Assembly (NCBI RefSeq): GCF_963921235.1
Contig: NC_086097.1
Span: 133,798,001-133,862,000 of the forward strand
Source: Mobula hypostoma
Taxonomy: Eukaryota
DNA: 64,000 nucleotides
Direction of reading: 5' to 3'
Under the pieces are notes generated by a model. The model did no database searches and was not told the DNA's origin. It worked only from the letters and a program-made list of their open reading frames with translations. This document shows, in pieces, positions 6,335 to 32,425 of this stretch. The translations under genes and the position numbers were made by a program. Within the stretch, counting starts at the first letter, position 1. Every line of letters begins with the position of its first letter.

Positions 6335-6961
6335 GCAACATACATCAAAGTTGCTGGTGAACGCAGCAGGCCAGGCAGCATCTATAGGAAGAGGCGCAGT
6401 CGACGTTTCAGGCTGAGACCCTTCGTCAGGACTAACTGAAGGAAGAGTGAGTAAGGGATTTGAAAGCTGGAGGGGGAGGGGGAGATGCAAAATGATAGGA
6501 GAAGACAGGAGGGGGAGGGATGGAGCCGAGAGCTGGACAGGTGATAGGCAGAAGGGGATACGAGAGGATCATGGGACAGGAGGTCCGGGAAGAAAGACGG
6601 GGGGGGGTGACCCAGAGGATGGGCAAGAGGTATATTCAGAGGGAGAAAAAGGAGAGTGAGAGAAAGAATGTGTGCATTAAAAAGAGTAACAGATGGGGTA
6701 CGAGGGGGAGGTGGGGCCTAGCGGAAGTTAGAGAAGTCAATGTTCATGCCATCAGGTTGGAGGCTACCCAGACGGAATATAAGGTGTTGTTCCTCCAACC
6801 TGAGTGTGGCTTCATCTTTACAGTAGAGGAGGCCGTGGATAGACATGTCAGAATGGGAATGGGATGTGGAATTAAAATGTGTGGCCACTGGGAGATCCTG
6901 CTTTCTCTGGCGGACAGAGCGTAGATGTTCAGCAAAGCGGTCTCCCAGTCTGCGTCGGGTC
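6335..6961 (-). mobile_element. Penelope-like element 3' fragment (GIY-YIG endonuclease C-terminus plus pseudo-LTR)
   Basis: TRRRLGDRFAEHLRSV..PVATHFN..EQHLIFRLGSLQPDGMN, stop at 6718; nearly identical to 17420-18455. Confidence 0.92.
6398..6433 (-). ncRNA. Minimal type I hammerhead ribozyme in PLE pLTR
   Basis: Minus strand reads AGTC CTGACGA AGGG tctcag CCT GAAA CG TC GACT: stem I, CUGANGA core, stem II, GAAA, GUC cleavage triplet. Confidence 0.85.
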
Positions 6962-7126
6962 GACCCCAAGATCCCTCTGGTCCTCCACACTGCCAAGAGT
7001 CTTACCGTAAATACTATATTCTGCCATCATATTTGACCTACCAAAATGACCCACCTCACACTTATCTGGGTTGGACTCCATCTGCCACTTCTCAGCCCAG
7101 TTTTGCATCCTATTTTGCATCCTATT

Positions 7127-7174
7127 ACCAAATTTCCCTTGGGATTAATAAAGTATATCTGTCTATCTATCTAT
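7127..7174 (+). mobile_element. Very short LINE 3'-tail insertion (Rex1/L2 type)
   Basis: aatttcccttgggattAATAAAgta followed by (TCTA)n; flanked by a CTATT duplication at 7122-7126 and 7175-7179. Confidence 0.65.
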
Positions 7175-10030
7175 CTATTGACATCCTGCTGTAACTTCTG
7201 ACAGCCCTCCACACTATCCACAACACCCTCAACCTTTGTGTCATCAGCAAATTTACTAACCTTCCTCATCCAGGTCATTTATAAAAATCACGAAGAGAAA
7301 GGGTCCCAGAAGAGATCCCTGAGGCACACCACTGGTCACTGACCTCCATGCAGAATATGACCCATCTACAACCACTCTTTGCCTTCTGTGGGCAAGCCAG
7401 TTCTGGATCCACAAAGCAAGGTCCCCCTGGATCCCATGCATCCTTACTTTCTCAATAAGCCTTGCATGGGTTACCTTATCAAATGCCTTCCTAAAATCCA
7501 TATACACTACATCTATTGCTCTACCTTCATCAACGTGTTTAGTCATATCCTCCTAAAATTCAATCAGGAAAAATTCAATGTCCAATCAAGAACCTATCAA
7601 TCTTTGCCTTAAATATATCCAACAACCTGGCCTCCACAGCTGCATGTGGCAACAAATTCCACAAATTCACCACCCTTTGGCTAAAGAAATTTCTCCACAT
7701 CTCTGTTTTGAAAGGGTGCTCTTCCATCCTGAGGCTGTGCCCTCTTGTCCTAGACTCTCCTACCATGGGAAACATCCTTTCCACATCTACTTTGTCTAGG
7801 CCTTTCAACATTTGAAAGGTTTCAATGAGATCCCCCTCATCCTTCTGAATTCCAGCGAGTACAGACCCAGAGCCATCAATCATTCCTCATATGATAACCC
7901 CTTCATCCCTGGAATCATCCTTGTGAACCTCCTCTGAACCCTCTCCAATTCCAGCACATCTTTTCTAAGATGAGGGGCCCAAAACTATTCACAATACTCA
8001 AGGTGAGGCCACACCAGTGCCTTATAAAGCCTCAGCATCACATCCTTGCTCTTGTATTCTAGACCTCTTGAAATGAATGTTAACATGGCAATTGCCATCC
8101 ATTCAACCGACTCAGCCTGCAAGTTAACCTTCAGGGTGTTGTGCATAAGGACTCCCAAATCCCTCTGCACCTCAGATTCCTGTATTTTCTCCCCATTTAG
8201 AAAATAGTCTGCACATTTATTTCTACTACCAAAGTGCATGAGGATGCATTTTCCAACATTGTATTTCATTTGCCACTTTCTTGCCCATTTTCCTAATCTA
8301 AGTCCTTCTGCACCCTACCTGTTTCCTCAACAGTGCCTCCTCCTCCACTAATCTTCGTGTCATCAGCAAATTTGGCAACAACGCCATCTATTCCATCATC
8401 TAAATCATTAATATACAGCATAAAAAGAAGCGATCCCAACACTGACCCCTGTGGAACACCACTAGTCACTGGCAGCCAACTAGAAGAGGATCCTTCCAGT
8501 CCCACTCACTGCCTCCTACCAATCAGTCAATGCTCTAACCATGTTAGTAACTTTCCTGTAATACCATGGGCTCTTAACTTGGTAAGCAGCCTCATGTGTG
8601 GCACCTTGTCAAAGGCCTTCTGAAAGTCCAAACATACAATATTCACTGCATCCCCTTCATCTATCCTACTTGTAATCTCCTGAAAGAATTCCAATAGGTT
8701 CGTCAGGCAAGATTTTCCCTGATGGAAACCATGCTGACTTTGTACTATCTTTTCCTGTGTCACCAAGTGCTCCATCACCTCATCCTTAACAATTGACTCC
8801 AACATCTTCCCAACCACTGAGGTCAGGCTAACTGGTCTATAACTTCCTTTCTGCTGCCTTCTTCCTTTCTTAAAGAGTGGAGTAATATTTGCGATTTTTC
8901 AGTCCTCTGGCACCATGCCAGAGTCCAATTATTTTTGAAAGATTATTTCTAATGCCACCAGAATCTCTAACACTACCTTTTTCAGAACACTAGGGTGCAG
9001 CTCCTCTGGTCCAGGTGATTTATGTACCTTTAGGTCTTTCAGCTTTTTGAGCACCTTCTCTCTTGTAACAATAACTGCACTCACTTCTCTTCCTTCACAC
9101 ACTACAACATCAGACATACTGCTAGTGTCTTCCACAGTGAGGACTGATGCAAAATACTCATTTAGTTCATCAGCCAGCTCCTTATCCCCTGTTATTATTT
9201 CTCCTGCCTCATTTTCTAACGGTCCTATATCCATTCTCACTTCTCTTTTATTTTTAACATACTTTTACTATCCACTTTGAAATTTATTTGCTAGCTTTCA
9301 TATTTTATCTTTTCCCTTCTAATGATTTTTTTAGTTGGTCTCTGTAGGTGTTTAAAAACTTCCCAATCCTCTATCTTCCCACTAATTTTTGCTTTGTTGT
9401 ATGCCCGTTTTTTTGCTTTTACAATTAGCTTTGACTTCTCTTGTCAGCCACGGTTGTACAATTTTACCATTTGAGTATCTCTTCATTTTTGTCCTTTACC
9501 TTCCTCATGTCCTGCACCTTTCTCACTTTCCCAGAAACGCACACTGTTGCTGCTCTGCTAACATCCCTGCCAGCAGCTCCTTCCAATCTACTTTGGCCAA
9601 CTCCTTTCTCATACCACTGTAATTTCCCTTATTCCACTGAAATACTGCTACATCAGACTTTACTTTCTCCCTATCAAATTTCAAGTTGAACACAATCATA
9701 TTGTGATCACTGGTTCCTAAGGGTTTTTTTCACCTTAAGCTCCCTAATCACCTCCGGTTCGTTACCTAACACCCAGTCCAGTATAGCTGATTCCCTTGTA
9801 GGCTCAATGACAAACAGCTCTAAAAAGCTATATCTTAGGCATTCAACAAACTCACTCTCTTGAGATCTATTACCAACCTGATTTTCCCAATCGACCTGCA
9901 TTTTAAAAATTCCCAAGACTATCATAACATTGCTTTTTTGACTCACCTTTTCTATTTCCTGTTGTAACCTGTGGTCCACCTCCCAACCACTGTTGGAAGG
10001 CCTGTATATAACTGCCATCAGCGTCCTTTT

Positions 10031-11666
10031 AGAGTCATCAAGGCAGGGAAACAACAATACAAGGACAAGATTTAGACTCAACTCTCCACCCAAAACACAT
10101 GGAGCCTATGGGAAGGTCTGCATACCATCGCAGACTTTAAAGTTAAACGCAGTAGAGTTTTTAACATCGCTGCCTCACTCCCAGATCAGCTAAATCTTTT
10201 TTACACTCGATTCGATATTGCCAACACTGAGCTCCTGAGGAGTCCTACAGCTGATGCAACCTGCAAGTTGGTCATCTCTGAGGCTGAAGTACGCAGGGGT
10301 TTCCAACGGGTGGACGATTGCAAGGCTGCGGGACCGGACAGCATCCCAGAGTGGGTATTCATGATGTGCACAGCACAACTGACAGGTGTGTTTACAGACA
10401 TTTTCAACCTGTTTCTCTCCCAGTTTAGAGTGCCCTCCTGCTTCAAAACATCCACCATTGTACTCAGTCTAAAAAGACCAAGGTATAGCGTGTCTGAAGA
10501 ACTGGTGTCCTGTTGCACTCACCTCAATAATAAGCAAATGCTTTGAGTGGCTGGTCAAGGACTACATCTGCACCATGTTACCATCCAAACTGGACCCCTA
10601 CAATTCGCCTACTGACACAACCGATTGACAGATGACGCAATAGCCACAGCTCTACACACCATCCTTACACATCTGGAGAAGAAGGATGTCGGCAGGTGGT
10701 AAGAGTGGGCTCCCTCACCTCTGCCTGTCTGGCCCTCAACACAACTGCCCCCCAAGGCTGTATCCTAAGCCCCTTCCTTTACTCTCTGTATACCCATGAC
10801 TGTTGCCACCCACAGCTCCGATCTACTAATTAAATTTGCCGGTAATACCACACTGATCTCAAATAATAATGAGGAGACCTACAGAGAAGAAGTCATCACC
10901 CTGACACAGTGGTGTCAAGAAAACAACCTCTCCCTCAATGTTGCAAAAATAAAGGAGCTGGTTGTGGACTACAGGAGGAATGGAAATAGGCTAACTCCTA
11001 TTGACATCAATGGATCTGGGGTTGAGAGGGTGAACAGCTTTATGTTCCTTGGCATAAATATCACTGAGGATCTCACATGGTCTGTACATACCGGCTGTGT
11101 GGTGAAAAAGGCACGGCAGCACCTTTTTTACCTCAGATAGTTGAGGAAGTTTGGTATGTGCCCCATATCCTAAGAACTTTCTATAGGAGCACAACTGTGA
11201 GCATCCTGACTGGCTGCATCAGTGCCTGGTACGGGAAATGTACTTCCCTCAATCGCAGGACTCTGCAGAGAGTGGTGCAGACAGCCCAGCACATCCGTAA
11301 ATGTGAACTTCCCACTATTTAGGGCATTCACAAAGCCAAGTGTGTAAAAAGGGCCCAAAGGATCATTGGGAATCCGAGTCACCCCAACCACAAACTGTTC
11401 CAGCTGCTACCATCCAGGAAATGGTACCGCAGCATTTAAAACAAGACCAACAGGCTCCAAGACAGCTTCTTCCACCAGGCCACCAGACTGATTAATTCAT
11501 GCTGATACAATTGTATTTCTATCTTATATTGACCTGTTGTACATAATATTTATTACAAATTACTATAAATAGCACATTTAGATGGAGGCATAACATAAAG
11601 ATTTTTACTCCTCGTGTAGTGAGGGATGTAAGTAATAAAGTCAATTCAATTCAATTCAATTCAATT
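10031..11666 (+). mobile_element. Rex1/Babar-clade LINE, 5'-truncated, with an internal deletion near 10690
   Basis: KAAGPDSIP..QLTGVFTDIFNL..PSCFKTSTI, decayed KFADD (KFAGN), WCQENNLSLNV; AATAAA 11634-11639 followed by (TCAAT)5. Confidence 0.9.
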
Positions 11667-12919
11667 GAAATGGGTTTTTAAGACAATCCAGTTGTCTCAC
11701 CATTAATTAAATGCAAAAGAGCTCACTTTTCCCTTCCAGATATCTGATTGAATTTAAATTCCCCAGTTGTGATGATATTTGTATTCACTTCTCAGGACAT
11801 CAGTCCAGGTTTCTGCAGTTGTGCACTCGAGTTTGAGTTTTCTCACAAAACTCTGAGTCAAAATTTTGACTGTCACTGGAGGATACCATTTGGAGGTTTT
11901 TCTGCTGACATGTTTGGTTGTGAGGTAACTTATTATGCTGTGCTGAATATAATCCAGTACTTATTCCTATATTTCACCAACAGGGTGTGACTCTTTAGTG
12001 TGCAGGTTTCTATGTCTGTATACCTATTCTTGCATAGTAAGACCCAAACAGGCTAGTCAAATTCAGCTGGAAGTAATGGAGGACTCTTGACATTCCCAGG
12101 AGTTCATGAGTTAATTACATTTGGATTGAGAAACAGAGATTAACAGCTTCAAATTACATACACCAGTGATTTGAGCAAGAACCCTTTTTTTTAATAATCA
12201 CTCACCACCATCAGTCAATGTGACTCTTTTAAAATTGTGTAACAAAAGGTTTGAATAATGAAACAAAAGCACTGAGTCCTGTCTATATCTGGCACATACA
12301 TGGATAAAGAGATTCAAATTAGCTGGTTTCTCAGGATGACACTGTTTTCAGGAACGAAGGAGTAAGTAAGCTAAAATAGAAAACACTTCTAACCACTCCG
12401 AAGATCAAACAATATCTGTGGAAAAACACTTCAGGTTTGTCAGGAGTTCCATGTTTTCCCATTTTGTTTCCCCTCAATAAATTCTGTACACATCATCTTT
12501 ATGCTCACACATTTAACCTGCTCCTATTCCTTTTAGTGTCCTTGCAATTTACTTTTCCACCTGTCTTTCTAACATCACAAACCTTGAATACATTACACAT
12601 GATCTCATCAACTAAATGACAAATAGCTATTGTCCTAGCATTGCCCTGTGGCATCCTACTAGTTAGAGATTCCATCTTGAAAATGTTAACCAATCTGCTT
12701 ATTATGGTCATAAAGTAATGTGATATATATGGTGGTATATCATTCCCATATCATAACCTTTATGCGGCATCTTAACAAATATCCATTGGTGCGACATGAA
12801 ACATTAAACAACCATTTTTATTCAACCTATTTTATTTTACCCACATTCCAATCAACTGTTTCTCAGATTCCATCACTCACCCACACACGAGGAACAGTTT
12901 AGAGTGGCCAGTTATGGTG

Positions 12920-13232
12920 AACAGCCACCACTGTGTACTCCAACAGTGATTGTGATTGGGGGTCAGTTCCCACCACTGTCTGTGAGGACTTTATACGTTC
13001 TCCCCGTGACCGCATGGGCTTTCTCCGAGTGCTTCACTTCTCTCCCACTTTCCAAAAGACAAATGGGTTAGGGTTGGTTAGTGGTGGGCGTGCTATGTTG
13101 GCACTGGAAACATTGCAACAACTGTAGGCTGCCCCCAGCACGTCCTCCTGTGTTGGTTGTTGACGCAAACAACATATTTCACCATATTTTTGATGTTTTG
13201 ACGTGCATGTGAGAAATAAAGCTAATCTTTCT
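12920..13232 (+). mobile_element. V-SINE (tRNA-derived head, V domain, LINE-type tail)
   Basis: V-domain-like gttctccccgtgaccgcatgggctttctccgagtgct..cccactttccaaaagac; AATAAA tail. Confidence 0.7.
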
Positions 13233-13344
13233 TTATTTCTGTGTATATTGTGTGGACCATCCTCGTGTATAAAATGACCCTCTTGCTTACAGGACGAGAA
13301 GGAAACCAAAGCAGTCAGAAGAAACCTATATATTCATAGGGAGA

Positions 13345-14086
13345 ATCAGGTTTACTATCACTGGCATATGTTGCAATATTTTTTTGTTATGTGGCAGCAG
13401 TACATTGCAATGCATAATAAAAACTGAATTACAGTAAGATATACAGGTATGTGTGTATATATGTGTGTGTGTATATATATAATATATAGTGCACAAAAAT
13501 GTTTTGAGGTAGTGTTCATATGTTCAATGTCCATTCAGAAATCTGATGGCAGAAGGGAAGAAGCTGTTACTGAATCTTTGAGTGTGTGCCTTCAGGCTCC
13601 TGTACTTCCTTCCTGATGGTAGTAATGAGAAGAGGACATATGTTGGGTGATGAGTTTCCTTAATGATGGATGCTGCCTTTTTGAAGCTCCCTGAAGAAGT
13701 CTTGGATGCTGGGGAGGCTGGTGCTCATAATGGTGCTGATTGAGTTTGCAACTTTCTGCAACTTGTATCGATCCTGTGCAGTGCCCCCCACCCCGTACCA
13801 GACAGTGATGCAGTCAGTTAGAATGCTCTCCATGGTACATCTATAGAAATTTGTGAGTATCTTTGGTGACATAGCAAATCTTCTCAAACTCCTAATGAAA
13901 TATAGCCCCTATCAAGCCTTCTTTGTAATTCCATTGATATGTTGGATTCAGGATAGATCCTCAGAGATGTTGACACCCAGGAACTTGAAATTGCTCACTT
14001 TTTCCACTTCTGATCCTTGCATGAGGATTGCTATGTGTTCCCTTGTCTTACCTTTTCTGAAGTCCACAATCAATTTGTTGGTCCTG
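13345..14086 (-). mobile_element. Rex1/Babar LINE 3' fragment containing a (TG/TA)n microsatellite at 13448-13488
   Basis: RRFAMSPKILTNFYRCTMESILTDCITVWYG. Confidence 0.85.
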
Positions 14087-16220: not shown

Positions 16221-17125
16221 ATGCTGGAGGAACTCAGCAGGTCAGGCAACAAATATGGAAATGTCTATGTCTCAGGCTGAGACCCTTCTTTAGGACTGGA
16301 AAGGTCGGGTTCACTTCCTTTCCAGACCGGAAAGGAAAATAAGGACATGGAAATAAGAGGGTCCACTTACCTACCAGCCCATGAGCCTTTGCATCCACTG
16401 TCTCCAAAAGGATCCTACCACCAAACATATCTTTACCTCACCCAACCCCACCACTCTGCTTTCTGCAGGGATCGCTCTCTCCATGATTCCCTTGCCCATT
16501 CGTCCCTCCCCACTAATCTCCTTCCCAGTACTTACCCCAGCAAGCGGCCAAAGTGCTGCACCTGCCCATTCACCTTCTCACTCACCTCCATTCAGGGCCC
16601 TAATCAGTCCTTCAAGGTGAGGCAACACTGCACCTGCGAATCTGCTGCAGTTGTCTGTTGTGTCCGGTGTTTCGGATGCAGCTTCCTCTACATTGGTGAG
16701 ACCCATCATTAACTGGGGGACCACTTTGTTAAGCACCTCTGCTCCATTTGCCAAAAAAATGGAAATTTCTTGTGGCCAAACATTTTAATTCTGATTCCCA
16801 TTCCCATACCGCTCAGAATTATGAGGAGTATAGATAGGGTTAATGCAGCAGGCTTTTCCCACTGAGGTTGGGCAGGATAACAACTAGAGCTCATGGGTAA
16901 GGGTGAAAGGTGAAAAGTTCAAGGAGAAAGTGAGGGGAAACTTCTTCACTCAGAGGGACATGAGAGTTTATTTTTGACATCTTCGCCCTTACTTTCCAAT
17001 CCTGAAGAAGGGTGTGAAACATCAAATGTTTATCCATTTCCATAGATGCTGCCTAACTTGCTAAGTTGCTCGAGCATTTTGTGTATGTTGCTTTGGATTT
17101 CAAGCACCTGCAGAATTTCTCGTGT
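16221..17125 (+). mobile_element. Older Penelope-like element with an inverted 5' pLTR arm (16221-16304) and an internal CR1 patch (16816-16966)
   Basis: Cys-rich linker and GIY-YIG (CTCESAAVVCCVRC..LYIGET); pLTR in opposite orientations at the two ends. Confidence 0.8.
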
Positions 17126-17419
17126 TCCCAATATACCCTATTGCCTACCTGCTCTGTACTTTCTCTGTAAGTGTAACACTACATTCTGCATTCCATTTTC
17201 TTCTTACTACTTCAATGTAATTTTGTTTGCATGGCATACAAACAAAAGCTTTTCACTACATCTTGGAGCATGTAATACAGGAGGATTGGAGGATAGCTAA
17301 TGTTGTTCCGCTGTTTAAGAAAGGCTCTAAAAATAAACCAGGAAAGTATAGGCCAATGAGCCTAACATCAGTAGTGGTAAAGTTATTGGAAGGTACTCAA
17401 AGGGACTGGGTATATGGGT

Positions 17420-18455
17420 TCCCGCCACCCCACTAGGAATAGGGTTCCCCTGGTCCTCACCTACCACCCTACCAGCATCCGGGTCCAACATATTATTCTC
17501 CGTAACTTCCGCCACCTCCAACAGGATCCCACAACTAAGCACATCTTTCCCTCCCCCCCCCCCCCGGCTTTCCGCAGGGATCACTCCCTACGCGACTCCC
17601 TTGTCCATTCGTCCCCCCCATCCCTCCCCACCCCCACTGATCTCCCTCCTGGCACTTATCCTTGTAAGCAGAACAAGTGCTACACATGCCCTTACACTTC
17701 CTCCCTTACCACCATTCAGGGCCCCAAACAGTCCTTCCAGGTGAGGTGACACTTCACCTGTGAGTCGGCTGGGGTGATGTACTGTGTCCGGTGCTCCCGA
17801 TGTGGCCTTTTATATATTGGTGAGACCCGATGCAGACTGGGAAACAGCTTTGCTGAACACCTACGCTCTGTCCGCCAGAGAAAGCAGGATCTCCCAGTGG
17901 CCACACATTTTAATTCCACATCCCATTCCCATTCTGTCATGTCTATCCACGGCCTCCTCTACTGTAAAGATGAAGCCACACTCAGGTTGGAGGAACAACA
18001 CCTTATATTCCGTCTGGGTAGCCTCCAACCTGATGGCATAAACATCGACTTCTCTAACTTCCGCTAATGCCCCACCTCCCCCTCGTACCCCATCTGTTAT
18101 TTATTTTTATACACACCTTCTTTCTCTCACTCTCCTTTTTCTCCCTCTGTCCCTCTGACTATACCCCTTGCCCATCCTCTGGGTTCCCCCCCCTTGTCTT
18201 TCTTCCCAGACTTCCTGTCCCATGATCCTCTCGTATCCTTTTTGCCAGTCACCTGTCCAGCTCTTGGCTCCATCCCTCCCCCTCCTGTCTTTTTCTATCA
18301 TTTTGGATCTCCACCTCCCCCTCCAACTTTCAAATCTCTTACTCACTCTTAGTTAGTCCTGACGAAGGGATCTCGGCCTGAAACGTCGACTGTACCTCTT
18401 CCTAGAGATGCTGCCTGGCCTGCTGCGTTCACCAGCAACTTTGATGTGTGTTGGT
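17420..18455 (+). mobile_element. Penelope-like element, 5'-truncated (linker, GIY-YIG endonuclease, pLTR)
   Basis: CKQNKCYTC, YCVRCSRCGLLYIGET..RL..EH; perfect 13-bp TSD TGGGTATATGGGT at 17407-17419 and 18456-18468. Confidence 0.95.
18355..18391 (+). ncRNA. Minimal type I hammerhead ribozyme in PLE pLTR
   Basis: AGTC CTGACGA AGGG atctcgg CCT GAAA CG TC GACT. Confidence 0.85.
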
Positions 18456-19171
18456 TGGGTATATGGGTATTTGGATACACATGGACTGATTAGGGATAGT
18501 CAGCATGGTTTTGTGCATGTCTAACCAATCTTACAGTTTCTGAAGGAAGTTACCAGCAAAGTGGATGAAGGCAAGGCAATGGATGTTGTCTACATGGACT
18601 TTAGTAAGGCACTTGATAAGGTCCCACATGGGATACTGGTCATGAAGGTTCAGTCACTCGGCATTCAGGACAAGATAGTAAATTGGATTAGACATTGGCT
18701 TTGTGGGAGGAGCCAGAGAGTGATAATAGATAGCTGCCTCTGACTGGAGGCCTATATCTGGTGGTGTGCCTCAGGGATCAATGCTGGGTACATTGTTGTT
18801 TGTCATCTATATCAATGGTCTGGATGATAATGTGGTAAACTGGATCAGCAAATTTGCAGACGTCTCCAAGACTGGGGGTGTAGTGGACAGCGAGGAGTAT
18901 CGGTGCTTTCAGCAGGATCTGGACCGGATGGAAAAATGGGCTGAAAAAGGGCAAATGAAATTTAATGCAGATAGATACAAGGTGCTGCACTTCAGCAGGA
19001 CCAACGAGGGTATGTCTTACACAGTGAACAGTAGGGCACTGAGGAGTGTGGTAGAACAAAAGGACCCAGGAATACAGGTCCATGATTCATTGAAAGTGGT
19101 AGTATGAATAGATAGGGTCATAAATAATGCTGTTGGTATATTGGTCTCCATAAATCAAGGTATTAAGTACA

Positions 19172-19274
19172 AGAAACACACCTAAAAGTTGCTGGTGAAC
19201 GCAGCAGGCCAGGCAGCATCTCTAGGAAGAGGTGCAGTCGACGTTTCAGGCCGAGACCCTTCTAAAAAGACTGC
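19172..19274 (-). mobile_element. ~100-bp PLE pLTR-only insertion
   Basis: pLTR 3' end truncated inside the hammerhead core at 19262; 11-bp TSD TATTAAGTACA at 19161-19171 and 19275-19285. Confidence 0.85.
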
Positions 19275-19715: not shown

Positions 19716-21324
19716 CAATGGCATGCAAATGTTTGGGCACCCCAGTCAAAATTTTTGTTACTGTGAATAGCTAAGTGAGTAAAAGATGACCTGATTTCCA
19801 AAAGGCATAAAGTTAAAGATGACACATTTCTTTAATATTATAAGCAAGAAAACTTTTTTATTTCCATCTTTTACAGTTTCAAAATAACAAAAAAGGAAAA
19901 GGGCCCAAAGCAAAGGTTTGGGCACACTGTATGGTCAGTATTTAGTAATACCCCCTTTGGCAAGTATCACAGCTTGTAAACGCTTTTTGTAGCGAGCTAA
20001 AAGTCTTTCAATTCTTCTTTGGGGGATTTTTGCCCAATCTTCCTTGCAAAAGGCTTCTAGTTCTGTGAGATTCTTGGGCCGTCTTGCATGCACTGCTCTT
20101 TTGAGGTCTATCCACAGATTTTCGATGATGTTTAGGTCGAGGGACTGTGAGGGCCATGGCAAAACCTTCAGCTTGCACCTCTTGAGGTAGTCCATTGTGG
20201 ATTTTGAGGTGTGTTTAGGATCATAATCCTGTTGTAGAAGCCATCCTCTTTTCATCTTCAGCTTTTTTACAGATGGTGTGATGTTTGCTTCTAGAATTTG
20301 CTGGTATTTAATTGAATTCATTCTTCCCTCTACCAGTGAAATGTTCCCTGTGCCACTGGCTGCAACACAAGCCCAAAGCATGATCGATCCACCCCTGTGC
20401 TTAACAGTTGGAGAGGTGTTCTTTTCATGAAATTCTGCACCCTTTTTTCTCCAAACATACCTTTGCTCATTGCTGCCAATAAGTTCTATTTTAACTTCAT
20501 CAGTCCACAGGACTTATTTTCAAAATGCATCAGCCTTGTTTAGATGTTCCTGTTAGACTTCTGACACTGAATTTTGTGGTAAGGATGCAGGAAAGTTTTT
20601 CTTCTGATGACTGTTCATGAAGATTATACTTATGCAGGTGTCGCTGCACAGTAGAACAGTGCACCACCACTCCAGAGTCTGCTAAATCTTCCTGAAGGTT
20701 TTTTGCAGTCAAATGGGGATTGGTTTGCCTTTCTAGCAATCCTACAAGCAATTCTCTCAAAGTTTTCTTGGTCTTCCAGACCTCAGCTTGACCGCCACCA
20801 TTCCTGTTAACTGCCATTTCTTAATTACATTATGAACTGAGGAAACGGCTACCTGAAAATGTTTTGCTATCTTTTTGTATCCTTCTCCTGCTTTGTGGGC
20901 ATCAATTATTTTAATATTTAGATTACTAGGCAGCTACTTAGAGGAGCCCATGGCTGCTGATTGTTGGGACAAGGTTTGAGGAGTCAGGGTATTTATAAAG
21001 CTTGGAAATTTGCATCACCTGGCCTTTCCTAACAATGGCTGTGAACAAGCCATGGCACTAACAAGCTGATTAAGGTCTGAGACCTTGGTAAAAGTTATGA
21101 GAGCTCAAATCTCTTCGAGTGCCCAAACGTTTGCATGGTGCTCCTTTCCTTTTTATCACTCTAAAATTGTACAAAAAAAATACACTAATCTTGCTTAAAA
21201 TGTTAAAAAGAATGTTTCATGTTTAGCTTTATGACTTTTGGAGATCAGTTCATCTTCTACTCACTTAACTATTCACAGTAACAGAAATTTTGACCAGGGG
21301 TGCCCAAACTTTTGCATGCCACAG
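19716..21324 (-). mobile_element. Full-length Tc1/mariner DNA transposon, IR/DR type, with a DD34E transposase pseudogene
   Basis: TA TSD at 19714-15 and 21325-26. ~210-bp inverted repeats (19716-19925, 21119-21324) with GCAAA.GTTTGGGCAC direct repeats at both ends. Transposase ATG 20951 to stop 19935 with WTDE, QQDYDPKH and SLDLNIIENLW (34-aa D-E spacing); stops and frameshifts present. Confidence 0.95.
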
Positions 21325-21619: not shown

Positions 21620-22000
21620 GATCTTCCTGTTAAGGGAAAGATGTGGTTAAATTGGAAAGAGTGCAGAAAAGATTTATGAGGATCCTGACAGAATTAGAGG
21701 GCCTGAACTACAGGGAGAGATTGGTCTTTATTCCTTGGGACGTAGGAGAATGAGGGCCAATTTTTTAGAAGAGTTAAAAAATTATGAGAGGCATAGATAA
21801 TGTGGATGGTAACAGTCTCTTCCCTAAGGAAAGGGAGTCTAAAACTATGGAGCACAGATTCATGGCGAGAGGGGAAAGATTTAAAAGAGAACAGAGTGGT
21901 AACTTTTTCCACCTAGAGGGTGGTGATTATATGGAATGAGCTGCCAGAGGAAGTGGTACATTGGTAACATTTAAGAAATACTTGGATAGATATATCCATT
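21620..22000 (+). mobile_element. Degenerate CR1 3' fragment
   Basis: Diverged ORF2 C-terminal sequence. Confidence 0.65.
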
Positions 22001-22049
22001 TAGGAAAACAATTGCGCATCAACCATTCAACTGTGGGTCTGAAACTTGA

Positions 22050-22580: not shown

Positions 22581-23020
22581 GCAAATAAAAATCTGTGAGG
22601 AAATCAGCAGGTCAGGTTGGTAGCAGCTATGAAGGGAAATGAGCAGCTGACATTTCATTCAGGGACGTTCATCAGGATGGCTTAGAAAAAGAAGAAAAGG
22701 GCAGAAGTCAGAATAAAAAGGTGGGGTGGAGGAAATAGCACAAACTGCTGGATTCTATGAGAGGGGGAAGGCTGGTGTGTGGTAGGTTAGTGAAAGGAAA
22801 TGACATAAGAAGCTAGGTGGAGATCGACGGAAGAGGCAAATAGCTGAAGAAGAATGAATCGAATAGAAGAGGTCAGCAGACCATGAAGTAAAGGGGGAGG
22901 TCGGGTCCTGATGAAGGGTCTCAGTCCAAAATGTCATCCTATTGCCTGATTTGCTGAGTTCCTCCAGCATTTTGTAAATATTGCTTAAGATTTCCAGCAT
23001 CTGCAAAATCTCTAGTGTTT
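22581..23020. mobile_element. Old fold-back PLE remnant (inverted pLTR arms); a second smaller one at ~23110-23270
   Basis: Minus arm 22581-22900; plus arm begins at a decayed hammerhead ggtcCTGATGAagggtctcagtccaaaa (22904). Another CTGATGA-aAGGCC-att-GGCCT-GAAA at 23158-23182. Confidence 0.65.
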
Positions 23021-23421
23021 CAATGAGTGAAAGGTAAGTGAATGTGGATATGGAAATAAAACCCCACATGCAGTCGTCATGTACTGCAGTGCAGTCACCT
23101 AGTGTCATTAAAAAGCAGAAAAGACTTGAGAATATCAGTAGGTCATATCTTACCTTTCTGATGAAAGGCCATTGGCCTGAAATATTAACTTTTCTTATCT
23201 GCAGATGCTGACTGACCAATTCAATATCTCTGGCATTTTCTATTGTTACTTCAGATTTCTTGAATCTGCTTTTTTTTAAGCTTTATGGACATTTTGGTAC
23301 ATGGAGCTTAGAAAAATAAAGGGCTATGGGAAACCCTAGGTAATTTCTAAAGTAAGTGCATGTTCAGCATTGTCGGCCAAAGGGCCTGTATTGTGCTGTA
23401 GGTTTTTTATGTTTCTATTTT

Positions 23422-23976: not shown

Positions 23977-24454
23977 TACATTTTAATTGACAGAGGGAAT
24001 TCATTTTTTTGGATTTTGGTACCACTGATAACGTGCATACTCATTGACTATCCCTAATTGCCCCTGAGAAGGTAATGGTGAACTTCTCTCTTAAGCTGCC
24101 ACTGTTTTGCTGAATGTGTTCCTGGTGCTGGGGAAGAAATTCCAGGATTTAGGCCCGATGACGATGAAAGACAGATGGTGCATCTCCATTTGGTTTTGTG
24201 TGTGACTTAGAGAGGAACCTGGAAATGCTTTTGAACTTCCTGACACTAAAGATCATAATTTTGGGTAGTATTGATGGACTGGCCTATAGGAGTAAATGCG
24301 ATGTATTTTGCAAATGCTACACATCACAACCACTGTGTTCTAATAAAGGGAAAAAAAGCTTTATTTGTTACATAAACATCGAAATATACAGCGAGTGGCT
24401 TTATTTGCATCAACAAGGATGTGCTGGGAACAGCAGTGGATGGAATTGAATGCT

Positions 24455-27380
24455 TAGATTCAAAGTTCAAAGTAAATTTGTTATCAAAGTACATATATTT
24501 CACCATATACAACCCTGAGATTCATTTTCTTGTGGGCATTCACAGTAAGCACAAAGAAACACAATAGAATCAATGAAAGACTGCACAAAACAAGATGGAC
24601 GAACAACCAACCAACGTGCAACAGACAACAAACTGTGCAAGTCCAAAAGAGAAAAATAATTTAAAAATTAAGCAATAACTATCAAGAAAATTAGATGAAG
24701 AGTCCTTGAAAGTGAGTCCATAGGCTGTGGGAACAGTTCAGTATTGGGGTGAGTGTAGCTGAATGAAGTTATCCTCTCTGGTTGAAGAGCCTGATGACTG
24801 AGGGATAATAACTGTTCCTGAGCCTGGTGGTACGTTCAGAACATCTGTGCCTTCACTGCTCAGACGTACCACCTTCCTGATGGCAGCAGCAAGAAGAGAG
24901 CATGGCCTGGATGGTGGGAGTCTCAGATGGTGGACGCTGCTTTCCTGTGACAGCGCTCCATGTGGATGAGCTCAGTGGTGGGGAGAGCTTTACCCGTGAT
25001 GGACTGGGCTGTATCCACTACTTTTTGTAGACTTTTCTGCTCACGTGCATTAGGGTTGCCATACCAGGCTGTGGTGCAACCAGACAATATACTCTACGCT
25101 GCGCATTTATAAAAATCTGTCAACATTTTAGACAGCATGTCAAATCTTTGCAAACTTCGAAGTAGAAGTAAGGAGCGCTGCATGCTCTCTGTGCAATGGC
25201 ACTTGTGTGCTGGACCCAGGACAGATCCTCTGAAATGATAATACCAAGGAATTTACAGTTGCTGACTGTCTCCTCCTCTGATTCCCCGTTGAGGACTGGC
25301 TCATGGAGCTTTGGTTTCCTCCTCCTGTAGTCAATAACCAGATCTTTGGTCTTGCCGACCTTGAATGGGAGGTTGTTGTTAAGGCACCACTCAGCCAGAT
25401 TTTCCTCTCTATATGCTGACTTGTCACCATATGTGATTCAGCCAGTGACAGTGGTGCTGTCAGCAAACTTAAATATGGCATCAGAGCTGAACCTAGCCTT
25501 ACAGTCATCAGTATAATGCAAGTCGAGCAGGGGGCTAAGCACACAGCCTTGTAATTGTGGAGGAGATGTTGTTGCCAATCTGAACTGACTGGGGTCTGCA
25601 AGTGAGGAAATGAGGATCCAGTTGGCTAAGAACAATTGAGGGCTAGGTCTTAAAGCTTATTAATTAAATTTAATGGTATGTTAGAAATGAATGGTGAGCT
25701 GTAGTCAATGAGGACCATTCTGATGTATGGGTCTTTGTGCCCAGATGGTCTAGTGTTGAGTAAATACTTTATTCTTCATTGTCACCAAACAATTGATACT
25801 AGAACGTACAATCATCACAGCGATATTTGATTCTGCGCTTCACACTCCCTGGAGTACAAATCGATAGTAAATATTAAACATTTATTTTCTATTTATGATT
25901 TATAATTTAGAAAAATGGAAAGTAAGGTAGTGCAAAAAAAAACTGAGAGGCAGGTCTGGATATTTGGAGGGTACGGCCCAGATCCGGGTCAGGATCCGTT
26001 CAGTAGTCTTATCACAGTTGGAAAGAAGCTGTTCCCAAATCTGGCCGTATGAGTCTTCAAGCTCCTGAGCCTTCTCCCGGAGAGAAGAGGGATGAAAAGT
26101 GTGTTGGCTGGGTGGTTCATGTCCTTGATTATCCTGGCAGCACTGCTCTGACAGCGTGCGGTGTAAAGTGAGTCCAAGGATGGAGGATTGGTTTGTGTGA
26201 TGTGCTGCGCCATGTTCACAGTCTTCTGCAGTTTCTTCCGGTCTACCAATAACCAATGAAATAGCCTCTTGTTGACCAATTGTGACGATAGATAAATTGG
26301 AGTGGATCGAAGTTTCTTCTCAGGCAGGAATTGATATGTTTCATCACCAACCTCCTAAAACACTTCATCACAGAGGATGTTAATGCTGCTGAATGATAGT
26401 CATTGAGGCAGGTTATTATGTTCTTCTTAGGCACCAGTATAATTACAACCCACTTGAAGCAGGTGGGCACCTCAGATTGCTGAAGCGAGACATCAGTGAA
26501 TACTCCAGCCAATTGATCAGCACAGTTCTTTAGCATTCAGCAAGGTATCCCTCTGGGCTGGATGCTTTACAAAGTTCATCCTCCTGAGAGATGCTTTCAC
26601 GTCAGCCTCAAAGACTGAAATTACAGGGTCATTGAGGGCTGTGGGAGTTCACCAAAGCACCTTCATGTTTTGCTGGCCAACACAAGCATAAAGGCTTTGA
26701 ACTCATCTGAGAGCGAAACCTTGTTGTTACCTAAGTCACTTGGTTTCACTTGTAAGAGGTGATAGCATTCAAGCCTGACACACCTACTGAGCATCCTTCA
26801 GCGATTCAAGTTTGGTCTGGAATTAGCATTTTGCATGTAAGATGGCTTTCGTGAGATCATACCTGGACTTCTTGTCACCAGTTCTGAACACCCTTAGCAG
26901 ATTATGGATTTGTTGGTTCATCCCTAAGCTTTTAATTAGGAAAAACTCTGAATGATTTTGTAAGGTCACACTCATCTAGGACTTTTTTATAAAGTCTGTG
27001 ACAACCGTGGCAATCAGCTCCTCCAATGAGCCCTTGAACACAGCCCAGCCCACCGACTTGAGACAATTCCATAGCCGCTCCTTCAACTCCAGCGAACAGC
27101 TTCTTGTTCTTCTTATCTCCAGAGTCTTACTTCTGCCTGTACGCAGGTAGGAGGATAGCCAGATGATCTGATTTGCTGAAATACAGTCTCAGGATGGTAT
27201 GGCAGACATTTCTAATCATAATAAAACAGTGGACGAGTTGGGACTCCTTCCGGTGCAGGTGGTATGCTAACCAGGCAGGGATTTTCTCAAATGAGTCTGA
27301 TTGAAGCCCTTGGCAATGAGTTGAAAGGCATTGTGGTAGGTTGTTTCTTTTTTGCTGATTGCAGCACTCAATACCTTGGT
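24455..27380 (-). mobile_element. Rex1/Babar LINE (endonuclease end, RT, 3' tail), decayed, split by a nested Rex1 at 25762-26245
   Basis: [45 protein letters not shown]. Confidence 0.85.
25762..26245 (-). mobile_element. Younger Rex1/Babar 3' fragment nested in Rex1
   Basis: DRKKLQKTVN..HPANTLF..SGRRLRSLKTHTARFGNSFFP; own AATAAA tail. Confidence 0.85.
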
Positions 27381-27599
27381 GATGTGAAAACTGCAGTCAG
27401 GATCACAAAGGAGAACGTTGTTGGTAAGTAGAACAGTCGGCACTGAATTATTAGATCTTCCAGGTCAGGGGAACAAGGCCACTATGTTTGAGTACAACAA
27501 AGGGATTACCATGAAATACAGCCCTCCCCGCCTTTGCCCTCTTCGAATCAGATTGGTGTATGTAGTACCAATCAAGTTGGCTTCTTTAACCTGCATGGT

Positions 27600-28790
27600 A
27601 TTGGTGAAGCTGCACTCATTCAGGCAAGTGGACAGTATTCCGTCACTCTCCTGACTTTAAGATGGTGAGAATGTTTGGCGTGTTAGGAAGTGAATCACTC
27701 CGTGATTGGTCCAATTAGATTTCTGGTCAACTGTGATACCCAGGTATTGATGGTGGAAATCGGCAATGGCGATATGTTTGAAAATCAAGAGTAGGTGGTT
27801 AGACTCTTGTTGGAAGTTGTCATTGTCCGGCACTTCTGTATGACATTTGCTGCTTGCCATTATACAGCCCTAGTGTCTAAGCATAATAAAAGGCAAGAAC
27901 TAATGTCTAGCTCTTGCTGTAGGTGAGCTGTTGCATTTGCTGAGGTGTGGGAATGGAACTGAACATTGCAATATCATCAGAGAACTTCTCAGTTCTGACC
28001 TTATGATAGAAGGAAGATCTTTACTTCCCTGTGAAATTCCTACAGTGATGTCCTGTGGCTGGGATGGTGGATCTCCAACAACCCCAACCATTTTCCTTTA
28101 TGCAAAAGAATCTCCAAGGATTGAAAATTCTTCCTTTGACACCCATTGACTTCACTTTTACTAGGGTATTACAGCACCACCATGTCATATGATTTCAAGG
28201 ACAGTTACTCTTGATGGAATTTAGCTTTTTCGTACATGTTTGGACCAGGACCATGATAAATTCTGGAGATAATTTGTCCTGGCAAATTCTGAACTGGGGA
28301 GAGATGGAAGACTGCAGGTACTGGAATCTGAACAAGACAGGAGATGCTGGGGGAATTCAGTGAATCAGGCAGCATCAAAGAAGGAAAATAGGCCGCCGAC
28401 GTTTTAGAATGAGAAGCTTCATCTTGAATACATTCTAACCTGGGCAATGGTGAGCCCATCATTGGAGAGTAAATGATAATTGATGGCGAGTGACACTGTC
28501 CAGCCCTCTGTTGCTGTTCCAGAGTAGACTGATTGGGGTGGGGGAGGAGGCAGGGTAATTAATGAGATCAGATTCATCCTGCTTATTTAGAACAGGGAAA
28601 ACCCAGGTAATTTCCAATATTATCAGGCAGATTCCAGTGTTTAAAAACAGACTGGAACAGCTTGCCCAGAGGCAAAGCTTGTTCTGGATCTCAGTCTGCA
28701 ATACTATAGCTTTGAAGTTATCTGGTCCCACCAAGTTCTCAGCATTCAATCCTCCTGGCTTTCATCTCCACCATGCAGGTTACAGAAACC
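27600..28790 (-). mobile_element. Ancient CR1/L2-group LINE remnant with a PLE pLTR fragment at ~28300-28430
   Basis: Residual GPDNF, WVFPVLNKQD and VGISQGS motifs in minus-strand ORFs. Confidence 0.5.
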
Positions 28791-29123
28791 ACTAACAGCC
28801 CATTAGAACACCGAATACTAGAATATTAGAATGCAGTACAGGGACTTCAGCCCATAATGTTGTGCGTCCATCATGCGATGCAAAGAGGAGCAACTGAATA
28901 ACATAGGGAGGAAATGATAGATGGGCAAGAGGCAGAGGGATTAGACTAGGCCACTGCTGAAATGAGCCAAAGGTTTTATTGGAGCAATGCTCCAAGTTAG
29001 ATTGGTTAGAGTTGAAAGCATATTCTGTCCTTGTCCAGTTGATGAGATTTGCAGTGAGCTAGCTTGGATTGTTTTCTCTGGAGCATCGGAAGCTGATTGG
29101 AGACCCAAGAGAAGTTTATAAAA

Positions 29124-29344
29124 GCAACACATATCAAAGTTGCTGGTGAACACAGCAGGCCAGGCAGCATCTCTATGAAGAGGTGCAGTCGACGTTTCAG
29201 GCCGAGACCCATCATCAGGATCTCGGCCTGAAACGTCGACTGCACCTCTTCCTAGAGATGCTGCCTGGCCTGCTGCGTTCACTGGCAACTTTGATGTGTG
29301 TTGCTTGAATTTCCAGCATCTGCAGAATTCCTGTTGTTTGTTGT
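29124..29344. mobile_element. Short fold-back (palindromic) PLE pLTR insertion
   Basis: 86-bp inverted arms 29122-29207 and 29221-29306 with a 13-nt spacer; TSD-like AGAA(G/A)TTTATAAAA at 29110-29123 and 29345-29358 within a decayed CR1. Confidence 0.9.
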
Positions 29345-29708
29345 AGAAATTTATAAAATTGAGAGAGATATAGAAAAGATAGAAAATCAGAAACATTTCC
29401 CCAGGGTCGAAACATATGATACTTCAGGTCACGTTTAATGGAGATAGGTGCGACAAGTTTCTTACACAGTTGCCTGGAATGGGCTGGTCATAGGAGAACA
29501 CGGGATGGTGGCATTTAAGGTAGATACATGCATATGGAGAACATGGAGGTGTGTGGACCATCTGCAGCAGAAGGGACCGTGTTCGATACAGACATTGTGA
29601 GCTGAAAGGCAAACACGAGGAAATCCGCAGATGCTGGAAATTCAAGCAACACACACAAAAAATGCTGGTGAACGCAGCAGGCCAGGCAGCATCTATAGGA
29701 GGAGGTAC

Positions 29709-29744
29709 AGTCGACGTTTCGGGCTGAGACCCTTCCTCAGAACT
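29709..29744 (-). ncRNA. Minimal type I hammerhead ribozyme in PLE pLTR
   Basis: Minus strand reads AGTT CTGAGGA AGGG tctcag CCC GAAA CG TC GACT. Confidence 0.8.
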
Positions 29745-31552
29745 AACTGAAAGAAGAGCTAGTAAGGGATTTGAAAGTGGGAGGGGGAGGGGGAGATCCA
29801 AAATGATAGGAGAAGACAGGAGGGGGAGGGATGAAGCCAAGAGCTGGAAAGTTGATAGGCAAAAGAGATATGAGGCTGGAGAAGGGAGAGGATCATGGGA
29901 TGGAAGGCCTAGGGGGGGGGGAGAATGGGGAGGAGGAAAGCCCAGAGGATGGGCAAGGAGTTATAGTGAGAGGGACAGAGGGAGAAAAAAGAGAGGGGAA
30001 AAAAGGGGGAAGAGAAAAAAAACTAATAATAAATAAACAAATAAGGGATGGGGTACGATGGGGAGGTGGGGCATTAGAGAAGTCAGTGTTCATGCCATCA
30101 GGTTGGAGGCTACCCAGACGGAATATAAGGTGTTGTCCCTCCAACCTGAGTGTGGCTTCATCTTTACAGTAGAGGAGGCCGTGGATAGACATATCAGAAT
30201 GGGAATGGGATGTGGAATTAAAATGTGTGGCCACTGGGAGATCCTGCTTTCTCTGGCGGACAGAGCGTAGGTGTTCAGAAAGCGGCCTCCTAGTCTGCGT
30301 CGGGTCTCGCCAATATATAGAAGGCCACATCGGGAGCACCGAATGCAGTATATCACCCCAGCCGACTCACAGGTGAAGTGGCGCCTCACCTGGAAGGACT
30401 GTCTGGGGCCCTGAATGGTGGTAAGGGAGGAAGTGTAAGGGCATGTGTAGCACTTGTTCCGCTTACAAGGATAAGTGCCAGGAGGGAGATCGGTGGGAAG
30501 GGATTGGGGGGGGGAACGAATGGACAAGGGATGGCACTTGCAAGAGACAGGGTGGGAAGAGGAATAGTCCAGGTAGCTGTGAGAGTCCATAGGCTTATAG
30601 TAGACAACAGTAGATAAGCTATCTCCAGAGATAGAGACAGAAAGATCAAGAAAGGGGAGGGAGGTGTCAGAAAAGGACCATGTATACTTGAGGGCAGGGT
30701 GAAAGTTGGAAGCAAAGTTAATGAAGTCAACAAGCTCAGCATGCATGCAGGAAGCAGCGCCAATGCAGTCGTCGATGTAGTGAAGGAAAAGTGGGGGGAC
30801 AGATACCAGTATAGGCTTGGAACATGGGTTGTTCCACAAAGCCAACAAAAAGGCAGACATAGCTGGGACCCACAGGGGTGCCCATGGCTACACCTTTAGT
30901 TTGGAGGAAGTGGGAGGAGCCAAAGGAGAAATTATTAAGAGTAAGGACTAATTCCGCTAGACAGAGGAGAGTGGTGGTAGAGGGAACTGGTTAGGTCTGG
31001 AATCCAAAAAGAAACTGAGAGATTTGAGACCTTCCTGATGGGGCATGGAGGTATATAGGGACTGGACATCCATGGTGAAAATAAAGCGGTGGGGGCCAGG
31101 GAACTTAAAATCATTGAAAAAATTCAGAATGTGAGAAGTATCATGAACATAGGTGGGAAGGGATTGAACAAGGAGGCATAAAACAGTGTCGAGGTATGCA
31201 GAAATGAGTTTGGTGGGGCAGGAGCAAGCTGAGACAATGGGTCTACCGGGACAGGCAGGTTTGTGGATCTTATCCCCATCCCTTTTTTTTTCTCTTTACA
31301 CCTTTTTTCTCTTTTTCTCCCTCTGTCCCTCTCACTATAACTCCTTGCCCATCCTCTGGGCTTTCCTCCTCCCCATTCTCTCTCCCTAGGCCTCCCATCC
31401 CATGATCCTCTCCCTTCTCCAGCCTTGTATCCCCTTTGCCAATCACCTGTCCAGCTCTTGGCTCCATCCCTCCCCCTCCTGTCTTCTCCTATCATTTTGG
31501 CTCTCCCCTCCCCCTCCCACTTTCAAATCTCTTACTATCTCTTCTTTCAGTT

Positions 31553-31588
31553 AGTCCTGACGAAGGGTCTTGGCCCGAAACGTCGACT
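31553..31588 (+). ncRNA. Minimal type I hammerhead ribozyme in the inverted PLE pLTR
   Basis: AGTC CTGACGA AGGG tcttgg CCC GAAA CG TC GACT, with all core bases and pairings intact. Confidence 0.87.
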
Positions 31589-32291: not shown

Positions 32292-32425
32292 GGCCTTTCT
32301 CTTTCTCCTGTTTTCTGTGTTTCTAAATTAATGAATATTACTAACCTGTAAAGTTATTGTCAAAAGCTCTTACCCAATAGATTGTTCTCCTCTACTGAAA
32401 TGAATAAGTTTGTTGTTGTATCCAG

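What the first reader, a model, noticed from the sequence alone, without database searches (positions are those of the whole stretch)
6398..31588. Penelope pseudo-LTRs carry an intact 36-nt minimal hammerhead ribozyme in multiple copies
Seen: AGTC-CTGANGA-AGGG-loop-CC(C/T)-GAAA-CG-TC-GACT at 6398-6433(-), 18355-18391(+), 29709-29744(-) and 31553-31588(+), always on the PLE sense strand and downstream of the GIY-YIG ORF where that ORF is adjacent. Differences between these copies fall at N7, in loop II, or give G-U wobbles. Decayed versions occur near 16265, 17000, 22904, 23158, 32196 and 54643; the 23158 copy has a different stem II (AGGCC/GGCCT) around the same core. Established: Penelope-like elements are known to encode minimal type I hammerheads whose helix III is reduced to a palindrome and which cleave as dimers. 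Inference: the ACGU palindrome here allows dimerisation between tandem pLTRs, with cleavage after GUC. The class is known; I cannot tell whether this family's ribozyme has been described.
Basis: partly seen in the sequence, partly recalled or inferred. Interest (0 to 1): 0.75.

Follow-up and report, generated by a model that had tools for sequence, protein, structure and literature searches.

The report
Penelope hammerhead relics, known kind
The four 36-base motifs are real copies of an already described small self-cutting-RNA motif carried at the end of a very abundant Penelope-type jumping gene, likely of a shark or ray; the copies here are broken, solitary or back-to-back leftovers that likely do not cut, and cutting by this family is untested.

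Summary
The motif is real: 4 intact minimal type I hammerheads at the stated coordinates, against 0 in 300 shuffles, among 24 pLTR remnants. They belong to a Neptune-type Penelope-like element (RT, CxxxxCxxC linker, GIY-YIG). Every feature (extra A after A9, G10.1-C11.1, loop-less ACGU helix III, short helix I) is in Cervera and De la Pena 2014, whose alignment lists no cartilaginous fish. This scan has reported the same kind many times, also in this genome.

Corrections: 31553 is not downstream of an ORF but an inverted pLTR at the 5' junction of the insertion that carries 29709, and the window has no tandem pair of intact motifs, so cis-dimers cannot form here. In public runs, core CpGs decay as fast as the loop CpG (9-14%), while the tolerated C11.1>U reaches 36-43%: the fold was likely kept in source elements, not in scattered copies. 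Covariation in 14 copies did not beat shuffles. The monomer is predicted to misfold.

One lead: 8 of 10 short copies begin in the hammerhead's 5' half and none at the cut site, which suggests uncut template RNA. New member of a known kind; cleavage untested.

The parts
6398..6433 (-). Intact minimal hammerhead, about 290 nt downstream of the endonuclease stop of a 5'-truncated copy (6335-6961)
18355..18391 (+). Intact core, helix II reduced to 3 bp by an extra A; end of copy 17381-18457 (thumb, linker, endonuclease, UTR)
29709..29744 (-). Intact minimal hammerhead (U2.1-G1.1 wobble, N7=G) in the 3' pLTR of the longest copy
31553..31588 (+). Intact minimal hammerhead in the inverted pLTR (31274-31651) at the 5' junction of the same insertion; predicted cut between 31584 and 31585
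30031..31273 (-). Broken RT, CxxxxCxxC linker and GIY-YIG endonuclease coding region (5'-truncated, frameshifts, internal deletion in the thumb region)
   Evidence: (GIY-YIG E 0.0072, below cut-off)
29610..29708 (-). Conserved pLTR block downstream of the hammerhead, with the optional tail of about 35 nt; element end 103 nt after the cut site
   Evidence: (665 and 544 contigs with loose ends at 29610)
29745..30030 (-). Pyrimidine-rich 3' UTR between the endonuclease stop and the hammerhead
29122..29340 (.). Mini insertion of two back-to-back pLTR ends joined inside the hammerhead 5' half; core intact at 29187-29218(-) with a 2-bp helix I; tail at one end only
32059..32299 (.). Second back-to-back mini insertion, decayed cores, tail at one end only
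16221..17126 (.). Older inverted insertion: decayed motif 16265-16297(-), endonuclease remnant 16366-16813(+), unrelated interrupting segment, decayed motif near 17000(+)
54546..55142 (-). Older copy: endonuclease remnant, UTR, decayed motif 54643-54678, tail
19170..19262 (-). Short copy starting at G8/A9 of the hammerhead
22905..23020 (+). Short decayed copy starting in the helix I 5' strand, with tail
23154..23190 (+). Old-subfamily motif: A-U at 10.1-11.1, 5-bp helix II, 2-bp helix I, AUAU helix III

Best explanation
The motifs are minimal type I hammerheads in the pseudo-LTR of a very abundant Penelope-like retroelement, likely of the Neptune clade and of a cartilaginous fish; in the parent element they would cut weakly after GUC as a two-copy, likely protein-assisted ribozyme, and the copies in this window are likely inert relics. 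Shown: the sequence, its place at a fixed distance from the endonuclease stop and from the element's 3' end, the inverted and 5'-truncated layout, and symmetric CpG decay of the core in public runs. Inferred from the known class: helix III cannot close within one copy, so two copies swap strands, the AC of one pairing with the GU of the other and each helix I forming between the copies. Computed only: a single copy prefers an inactive fold in which core bases G5-G8 pair with the bases before the cut site, and the dimer has stronger competing folds, so a chaperone such as the element's own protein would be needed, as shown for the anole Poseidon element. Inferred: most genomic copies were made from uncut RNA, so cutting is likely not needed for insertion.
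For: 4 descriptor hits against 0 in 300 shuffles. 5 of 5 endonuclease remnants have a same-strand motif downstream. Linker C-x4-C-x2-C and CxxC before GIY-YIG fit Neptune/Nematis; the best named protein relatives are from three sharks. The unpaired base after A9, G10.1-C11.1, the 15.2-16.2 palindrome and an opposite-strand second motif at a 5' junction are all described. 46,086 and 37,975 contigs of two DNA runs lie on the 85-nt stretch; the top loose-end piles fall at the two ends of helix I (31553-55, 31589-92) and at 31622, so diverged subfamilies share the hammerhead but not its flanks. Within 31571-31595, no row at 2% or more for A13, A14, A15.1, U16.1, A1.2 or C1.3 in any of 4 runs, while 4 of 7 spacer positions reach 2% in X1. 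C11.1>U (wobble kept) is 43% and 36% against G12>A 12% and 14% at the same CpG; other core CpG changes are 9-13%, like the loop CpG G>A at 13% and 11%. Monomer misfold probability 0.96-0.99 for the motif alone, 0.5 with upstream context. Low activity of minimal hammerheads and protein dependence with uncut template are published for relatives.
Against: No cleavage datum exists for this family. Covariation in 14 window copies does not exceed shuffles (paired cells 132/500, both-side changes 29/500), though it exceeds the slid controls. One older subfamily has a mismatch at the third pair of helix I. The C11.1>U excess may be one inherited event. The 5' core (C3-A9) gave no rows, apparently because it lies too near the end of the stretch, so its conservation was not measured. 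Contig depth is not copy number. Nearest-neighbour energies ignore the core's non-canonical contacts and Mg2+. Neptune versus Nematis was not tested by a tree. The host is inferred from protein relatives only.
Confidence: 0.7

Rival explanations
1. The fold is kept mainly for a non-cutting job (5' end of the transcript, protein-binding site or reverse-transcriptase stop), and cleavage is vestigial in this lineage.
For: 0 of 10 short copies start at the cut site, 8 of 10 start 21-35 nt before it; the cut site is not among the six top loose-end piles of any of 4 runs; strong predicted misfolds; anole catalytic mutants still insert and no RNA ends were found at the cut site; 8 of 9 Xenopus retrozyme dimers did not cleave.
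Against: The full catalytic core and the GUC triplet are kept in the young family; published relatives do cleave as dimers or with protein. The loose-end table hid 285 rows, so a small cut-site class is not excluded.
Confidence: 0.2
2. One reading: neighbouring copies in one transcript pair through ACGU and cut after GUC.
For: Same-strand neighbours exist: 29744 and 29218 (minus, about 520 nt apart), 31553 and 32195 (plus), 17002 and 18359 (plus).
Against: In each pair one partner is decayed or truncated; 29218 sits in a back-to-back repeat that would form a long hairpin; the two intact motifs of one insertion are on opposite strands; no transcript of this locus is shown.
Confidence: 0.04
3. 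Both hammerheads of a tandem element cut out a unit-length RNA that is closed into a circle and reverse-transcribed, which restores an intact motif in long copies.
For: Proposed by Cervera and De la Pena; long copies carry an intact motif and the downstream block.
Against: Long copies are equally explained by uncut tandem precursors; a circle does not predict copies that start 21-35 nt before the cut; no full-length or tandem element lies in the window.
Confidence: 0.12
4. The motif is a chance resemblance amplified by a repeat family.
For: The copies are related, so the shuffle test counts one origin several times; Rfam finds nothing; covariation is not above shuffles.
Against: It has all class-specific features at the expected place in a pLTR, closely resembles the listed Acropora Neptune and Xenopus motifs, and its borders match the borders of conservation between subfamilies.
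Confidence: 0.02

Closest known systems
Minimal hammerheads (min-HHR) in pLTRs of metazoan Penelope-like elements (Cervera and De la Pena 2014, PMC4209133; parts 1-2 of 4 of the text and parts 1-2 of 3 of the supplement read)
   Same: Type I, CUGANGA plus one unpaired base, G10.1-C11.1, GAAA, palindromic 15.2-16.2 without loop, helix I of 4-5 bp, U-rich upstream; mostly single dispersed copies; second copy on the opposite strand at a 5' junction (their Fig. S4A). The Acropora Neptune motif has the same core, bulge and CGUC.
   Different: No cartilaginous fish in their Table S1 or Fig. S3 as read; helix II here is 4 bp, shorter than the 7-8 bp of Schistosoma; a self-complementary GUCGAC spans the cut site.
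Poseidon hammerhead of the green anole, PAc (Frangieh et al. 2024, PMC11167929; parts 1-2 of 4 read)
   Same: Hammerhead in the pLTR; two 3' ends that flank a 30-40 nt tail about 70-100 nt downstream of the cut; copies from uncut RNA; both target strands extended, which would fit back-to-back insertions.
   Different: Poseidon clade, without the CX2-5CxxC linker; its ORF starts at stem II, whereas no start conserved in frame across subfamilies was seen here (a one-base length difference in the downstream block); its activity was tested, this one's not.
Neptune clade of EN+ Penelope-like elements (Craig et al. 2021, PMC8557442; passages and section 6 read)
   Same: RT followed by CX2-5CxxC linker and GIY-YIG with CxxC and histidines; 5' truncation, inverted pLTR, tail at one end only.
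   Different: No full-length or tandem copy in the window; clade not confirmed by a tree.
Non-LTR retrozymes (Li, Clavereau and Pollet 2026, 10.64898/2026.07.22.740005; parts 1-2 of 5 and passages read)
   Same: Type I hammerheads derived from pLTRs, reported in one unnamed chondrichthyan genome; many monomers.
   Different: Defined by head-to-tail tandem units each with a hammerhead; none here.

Membership tests
PLE minimal hammerhead | Core CUGANGA ... GAAA ... NUH | tested here: met
   4 of 24 remnants pass the strict descriptor; 0 in 300 shuffles
PLE minimal hammerhead | Unpaired base between 9 and 10.1; G10.1-C11.1 | tested here: met
   Unpaired A in 4 of 4; G-C in 2, G-U in 2
PLE minimal hammerhead | Palindromic 15.2-16.2, no helix III loop | tested here: met
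   ACGU in 4 of 4; A15.1-U16.1 in 14 of 14 aligned copies
PLE minimal hammerhead | Short helix I and a helix II | tested here: met
   Helix I 5 bp with wobbles, helix II 3-4 bp
PLE minimal hammerhead | Lies in the pLTR of a Penelope-like element | tested here: met
   5 of 5 endonuclease remnants have a same-strand motif downstream; two more in inverted pLTRs at 5' junctions
PLE minimal hammerhead | Compensatory changes in the helices | tested here: inconclusive
   5 of 11 pairs with a both-side change; 29 of 500 shuffles reach this; mostly from the single 23158 copy
PLE minimal hammerhead | Self-cleavage as a dimer | not testable with these tools
   No RNA run with raw reads was offered; contigs cannot show RNA ends
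Neptune clade | RT then GIY-YIG in one ORF, with CX2-5CxxC linker and CCHH motif | tested here: met
   C-x4-C-x2-C, CxxC before GIY-YIG and downstream histidines read; definition. Shared with Nematis
Neptune clade | RT groups with Neptune in a tree | not tested
   No named reference PLE proteins were at hand; one search reports only Neptune and Poseidon in vertebrates
Non-LTR retrozyme | At least two consecutive tandem units, each with a complete hammerhead | tested here: not met
   No such array
Rfam hammerhead families | Match to a covariance model | tested here: not met
   0 of 12 matches at E up to 10 is a hammerhead

The most novel reading that the evidence does not exclude
The short copies are a fossil map of the template's 5' end: the element's RNA starts at the first base of helix I, which sits in an initiator-like YYANWYY word in 8 of 8 UTR-bearing young and middle-aged copies. 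The reverse transcriptase starts internally about 70 or 103 nt after the cut site in the leading pLTR and runs off uncut RNA, and priming on both target strands yields the 220-240-bp back-to-back insertions. The hammerhead would then be a 32-nt leader whose cutting removes the cap, a brake or a translation switch, not a step of insertion.
Probability: 0.3. Interest if true: 0.5.

Novelty: new member of a known kind. Interest (0 to 1): 0.2.

Why it matters
As a motif it adds a cartilaginous-fish, Neptune-type member to a class known since 2014, so it matters little by itself. What hammerheads do for endonuclease-bearing Penelope elements is still called unclear. This family is so abundant (tens of thousands of matching contigs per run) that a genome-wide count of copy junctions around the cut site, and subfamily consensus comparison, could test that question at low cost.

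Tried and rejected
Rfam at E up to 10: no hammerhead among 12 matches. No whole genome is held for the window. Pattern scans found 0 loci in viral contigs and 0 in metagenome contigs, so no outside copies could be aligned. The two raw-read DNA runs X21 and X22 laid only 6 and 2 reads, none on the motif: no information. One search showed 40 of 261 variant rows, so most core positions were hidden. A splice acceptor at the AG before the core (polypyrimidine tract, then YAG; D. virilis has an intron ending at helix I) was considered: short copies share no upstream exon, loose ends in the RNA-guessed runs agree only 0.39-0.66, and the one subfamily with AA there lacks the AG; not supported. The loose-end piles at 31553-55 cannot be read as pure insertion junctions, since their consensus ends in the pyrimidine tract of older subfamilies. 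Lower CpG decay in run X14 (4-6%) affects loop and core alike, so it reflects younger copies, and the run is only guessed to be RNA. A conserved fold of the downstream block: consensus energy only -1.1 kcal/mol in 12 copies, not supported. The AUAU palindrome of 23158 as covariation: two relatives read differently there, and CG to UA is what two CpG decays give; rejected as evidence. Lunse et al. 2017 is not held; I saw only its title and a review's summary, so it or its supplements may already list shark or ray motifs.
Full report
Observation. The four motifs are present as stated at 6398-6433(-), 18355-18391(+), 29709-29744(-) and 31553-31588(+). A strict minimal-hammerhead descriptor finds exactly these 4 in the window and none in any of 300 dinucleotide shuffles; a loose form finds 7 against a mean of 1.29. 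Because the copies are related, this shows a repeated motif, not four independent origins. Rfam has no hammerhead among its 12 matches at E up to 10. An anchor search on the conserved block downstream of the motif gave 20 copies; with two found by the core scan and two fragments seen by eye, 24 remnants were examined, of which 4 are intact.

Fold. Helix I has 5 pairs with wobbles, then CUGANGA, one unpaired A, helix II GGGU/RCCY with a four-base loop, GAAA, and CGUC with the predicted cut after C (31584/31585). A15.1-C15.2-G16.2-U16.1 has no loop and can pair only with a second copy. In 18355 an extra A leaves 3 pairs in helix II. Cervera and De la Pena 2014 (PMC4209133; text parts 1-2 of 4, supplement parts 1-2 of 3) describe each of these traits, report such motifs in fish Xena, Poseidon and Neptune elements, and found no cleavage of a monomer and low cleavage of dimers. 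Their alignment includes an Acropora Neptune motif and a Xenopus motif of nearly the same make, and no cartilaginous fish.

The element. tblastn with all 36 relatives marks five coding remnants, near 6724-6961(-), 16366-16813(+), 17381-18076(+), 30031-31271(-) and 54939-55140(-); 5 of 5 have a same-strand motif downstream. The longest runs from RT through a C-x4-C-x2-C linker to a GIY-YIG domain (Pfam E 0.0072, below the cut-off). That linker marks Neptune and Nematis and is absent from Penelope/Poseidon (Craig et al. 2021, passages and section 6), and only Neptune and Poseidon were found in vertebrates (Li et al. 2026, passages), so Neptune is likely; no tree was built. The three best named relatives are shark proteins, from which I infer a cartilaginous fish. 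All copies are truncated or frameshifted.

Layout. 29709(-) and 31553(+) are the two ends of one insertion: the coding strand runs 31273 to 29610 and an inverted pLTR follows at 31274-31651. Three more insertions are back to back (16221-17126, 29122-29340, 32059-32299). Well-defined 3' ends fall in two groups, 66-76 nt (6 copies) and 99-103 nt (6 copies) after the cut; the long end at 29610 carries 665 and 544 loose-ended contigs in two DNA runs. In 4 of 4 inverted insertions only one end has the extra 35 nt or so. Inverted 5' copies and a one-sided 30-40-nt tail are the textbook layout.

Conservation. On 31541-31625, 46,086 and 37,975 contigs of DNA runs X1 and X2 were laid. The top loose-end piles lie at 31553-55 and 31589-92, the two ends of helix I, and at 31622; their consensus resembles older subfamilies, so the hammerhead is an island shared by subfamilies with different flanks. 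Variant rows appeared only for 31571-31595. There, A13, A14, A15.1, U16.1, A1.2 and C1.3 have no row at 2% in any of 4 runs, while 4 of 7 spacer positions reach 2% in X1. At CpGs, C15.2>U, G16.2>A, C17>U, G1.1>A and G12>A are 9-14% in both DNA runs, like the loop G>A (13%, 11%), but C11.1>U, which keeps a wobble pair, is 43% and 36%. I read this as neutral decay after insertion plus a source lineage that fixed only the tolerated change; it may be a single event, and depth-weighted contigs are not copies. Against: in 14 window copies pairing and covariation did not exceed shuffles (132, 29, 79, 43 and 123 of 500 on the five measures), although all measures but one (cells with a both-side change) exceeded every slid control; old subfamilies have mismatches in helix I.

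Folding energies. The monomer prefers a fold in which G5-G8 pair with the four bases before the cut, 4 kcal/mol below the open-core fold in the three C7 copies and 1 kcal/mol in the G7 copy, with probability 0.96-0.99 for 31553 alone and 0.5 with upstream context. The strand-swapped double hammerhead is 8-19 kcal/mol above the best dimer fold and 4-11 above two folded monomers; the ACGU duplex gives -1.7 kcal/mol against -7.5 for the GUCGAC palindrome over the cut site. These models omit core contacts and Mg2+, but agree with weak published activity and with the anole Poseidon hammerhead, which cuts only with the element's protein, is not needed for insertion in vitro, and left no RNA ends at its cut site (Frangieh et al. 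2024, parts 1-2 of 4).

Where short copies start. Of 10 short copies with a readable 5' junction, 8 start 21-35 nt before the cut, within the hammerhead's 5' half, 2 older ones start 20-35 nt after it, and none at it. A uniform null gives p about 0.0006, but the band was chosen afterwards and four of the copies come from two insertions. The cut site is also not among the six top loose-end piles of any run (285 rows hidden). The first base of helix I lies in a YYANWYY word (initiator consensus, recalled) in 8 of 8 UTR-bearing young and middle-aged copies, and not at that place in the 8 other copies examined; background is about 2% per position in the UTR and the copies are related. In D. virilis the start lies further upstream, 46 nt before an intron that ends at helix I (Schostak et al. 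2008, passages). So a start at helix I is a lead only; stalling of the reverse transcriptase at the 13 kcal/mol hairpin explains the data as well. I saw the clustering; the transcription-start wording follows earlier scan notes, which are unchecked and no support.

Novelty. The class is published and reviewed. Six searches showed no paper on this family's hammerhead in cartilaginous fish; the 2026 preprint reports tandem retrozymes in one unnamed chondrichthyan, its supplements are closed, and Lunse et al. 2017 was not available, so it may be listed there. The scan holds 792 findings with these words in at least 34 genomes and several on this family in this genome. Verdict: a real motif, a new member of a known kind, relics at this locus; interest 0.2.

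Noticed in passing
window 31604-31640 (+) and 19 other copies: The block starting about 20 nt after the cut site is the best-kept part of the pLTR in old copies, better than the hammerhead; no convincing common fold (-1.1 kcal/mol), and a one-base length difference between subfamilies argues against coding. Candidate protein-binding or promoter element.
   Followed up: partly
window 29122-29340 and 32059-32299; possibly 42980-43173: Insertions of 220-240 bp made only of two back-to-back pLTR ends joined inside the hammerhead's 5' half, with the tail on one side.
   Followed up: partly
window 54500-54535 (-): A fragment of the downstream block without hammerhead sits head-to-tail right after the tail of the 54546-55142 copy.
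   Followed up: no
window 19727-21312: Tc1/mariner-type DNA transposon remnant: 107-nt inverted arms (82%) and a DDE_3 ORF at 19935-20513(-), E 6.7e-14.
   Followed up: no
window 380-2290, 7500-10100, 49500-52000, 61968-63906: Several LINE reverse-transcriptase fragments (RVT_1 E 1e-34 and 8e-23 for two of them), CR1-like by recall; some Penelope copies lie inside or beside them.
   Followed up: no
window 58242-58353: A near-perfect hairpin of about 75 nt with a partial repeat beside it, giving chance microRNA-family matches; possibly a small DNA-transposon remnant.
   Followed up: no
window 21623-21732 (+): Weak full-length U6 match (21.4 bits, gathering score 44, E 0.69); chance or an old pseudogene.
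   Followed up: no
window 35372-35770 (+): A 132-codon open frame with no Pfam match and no repeat partner among the largest families; could hold a host exon.
   Followed up: no
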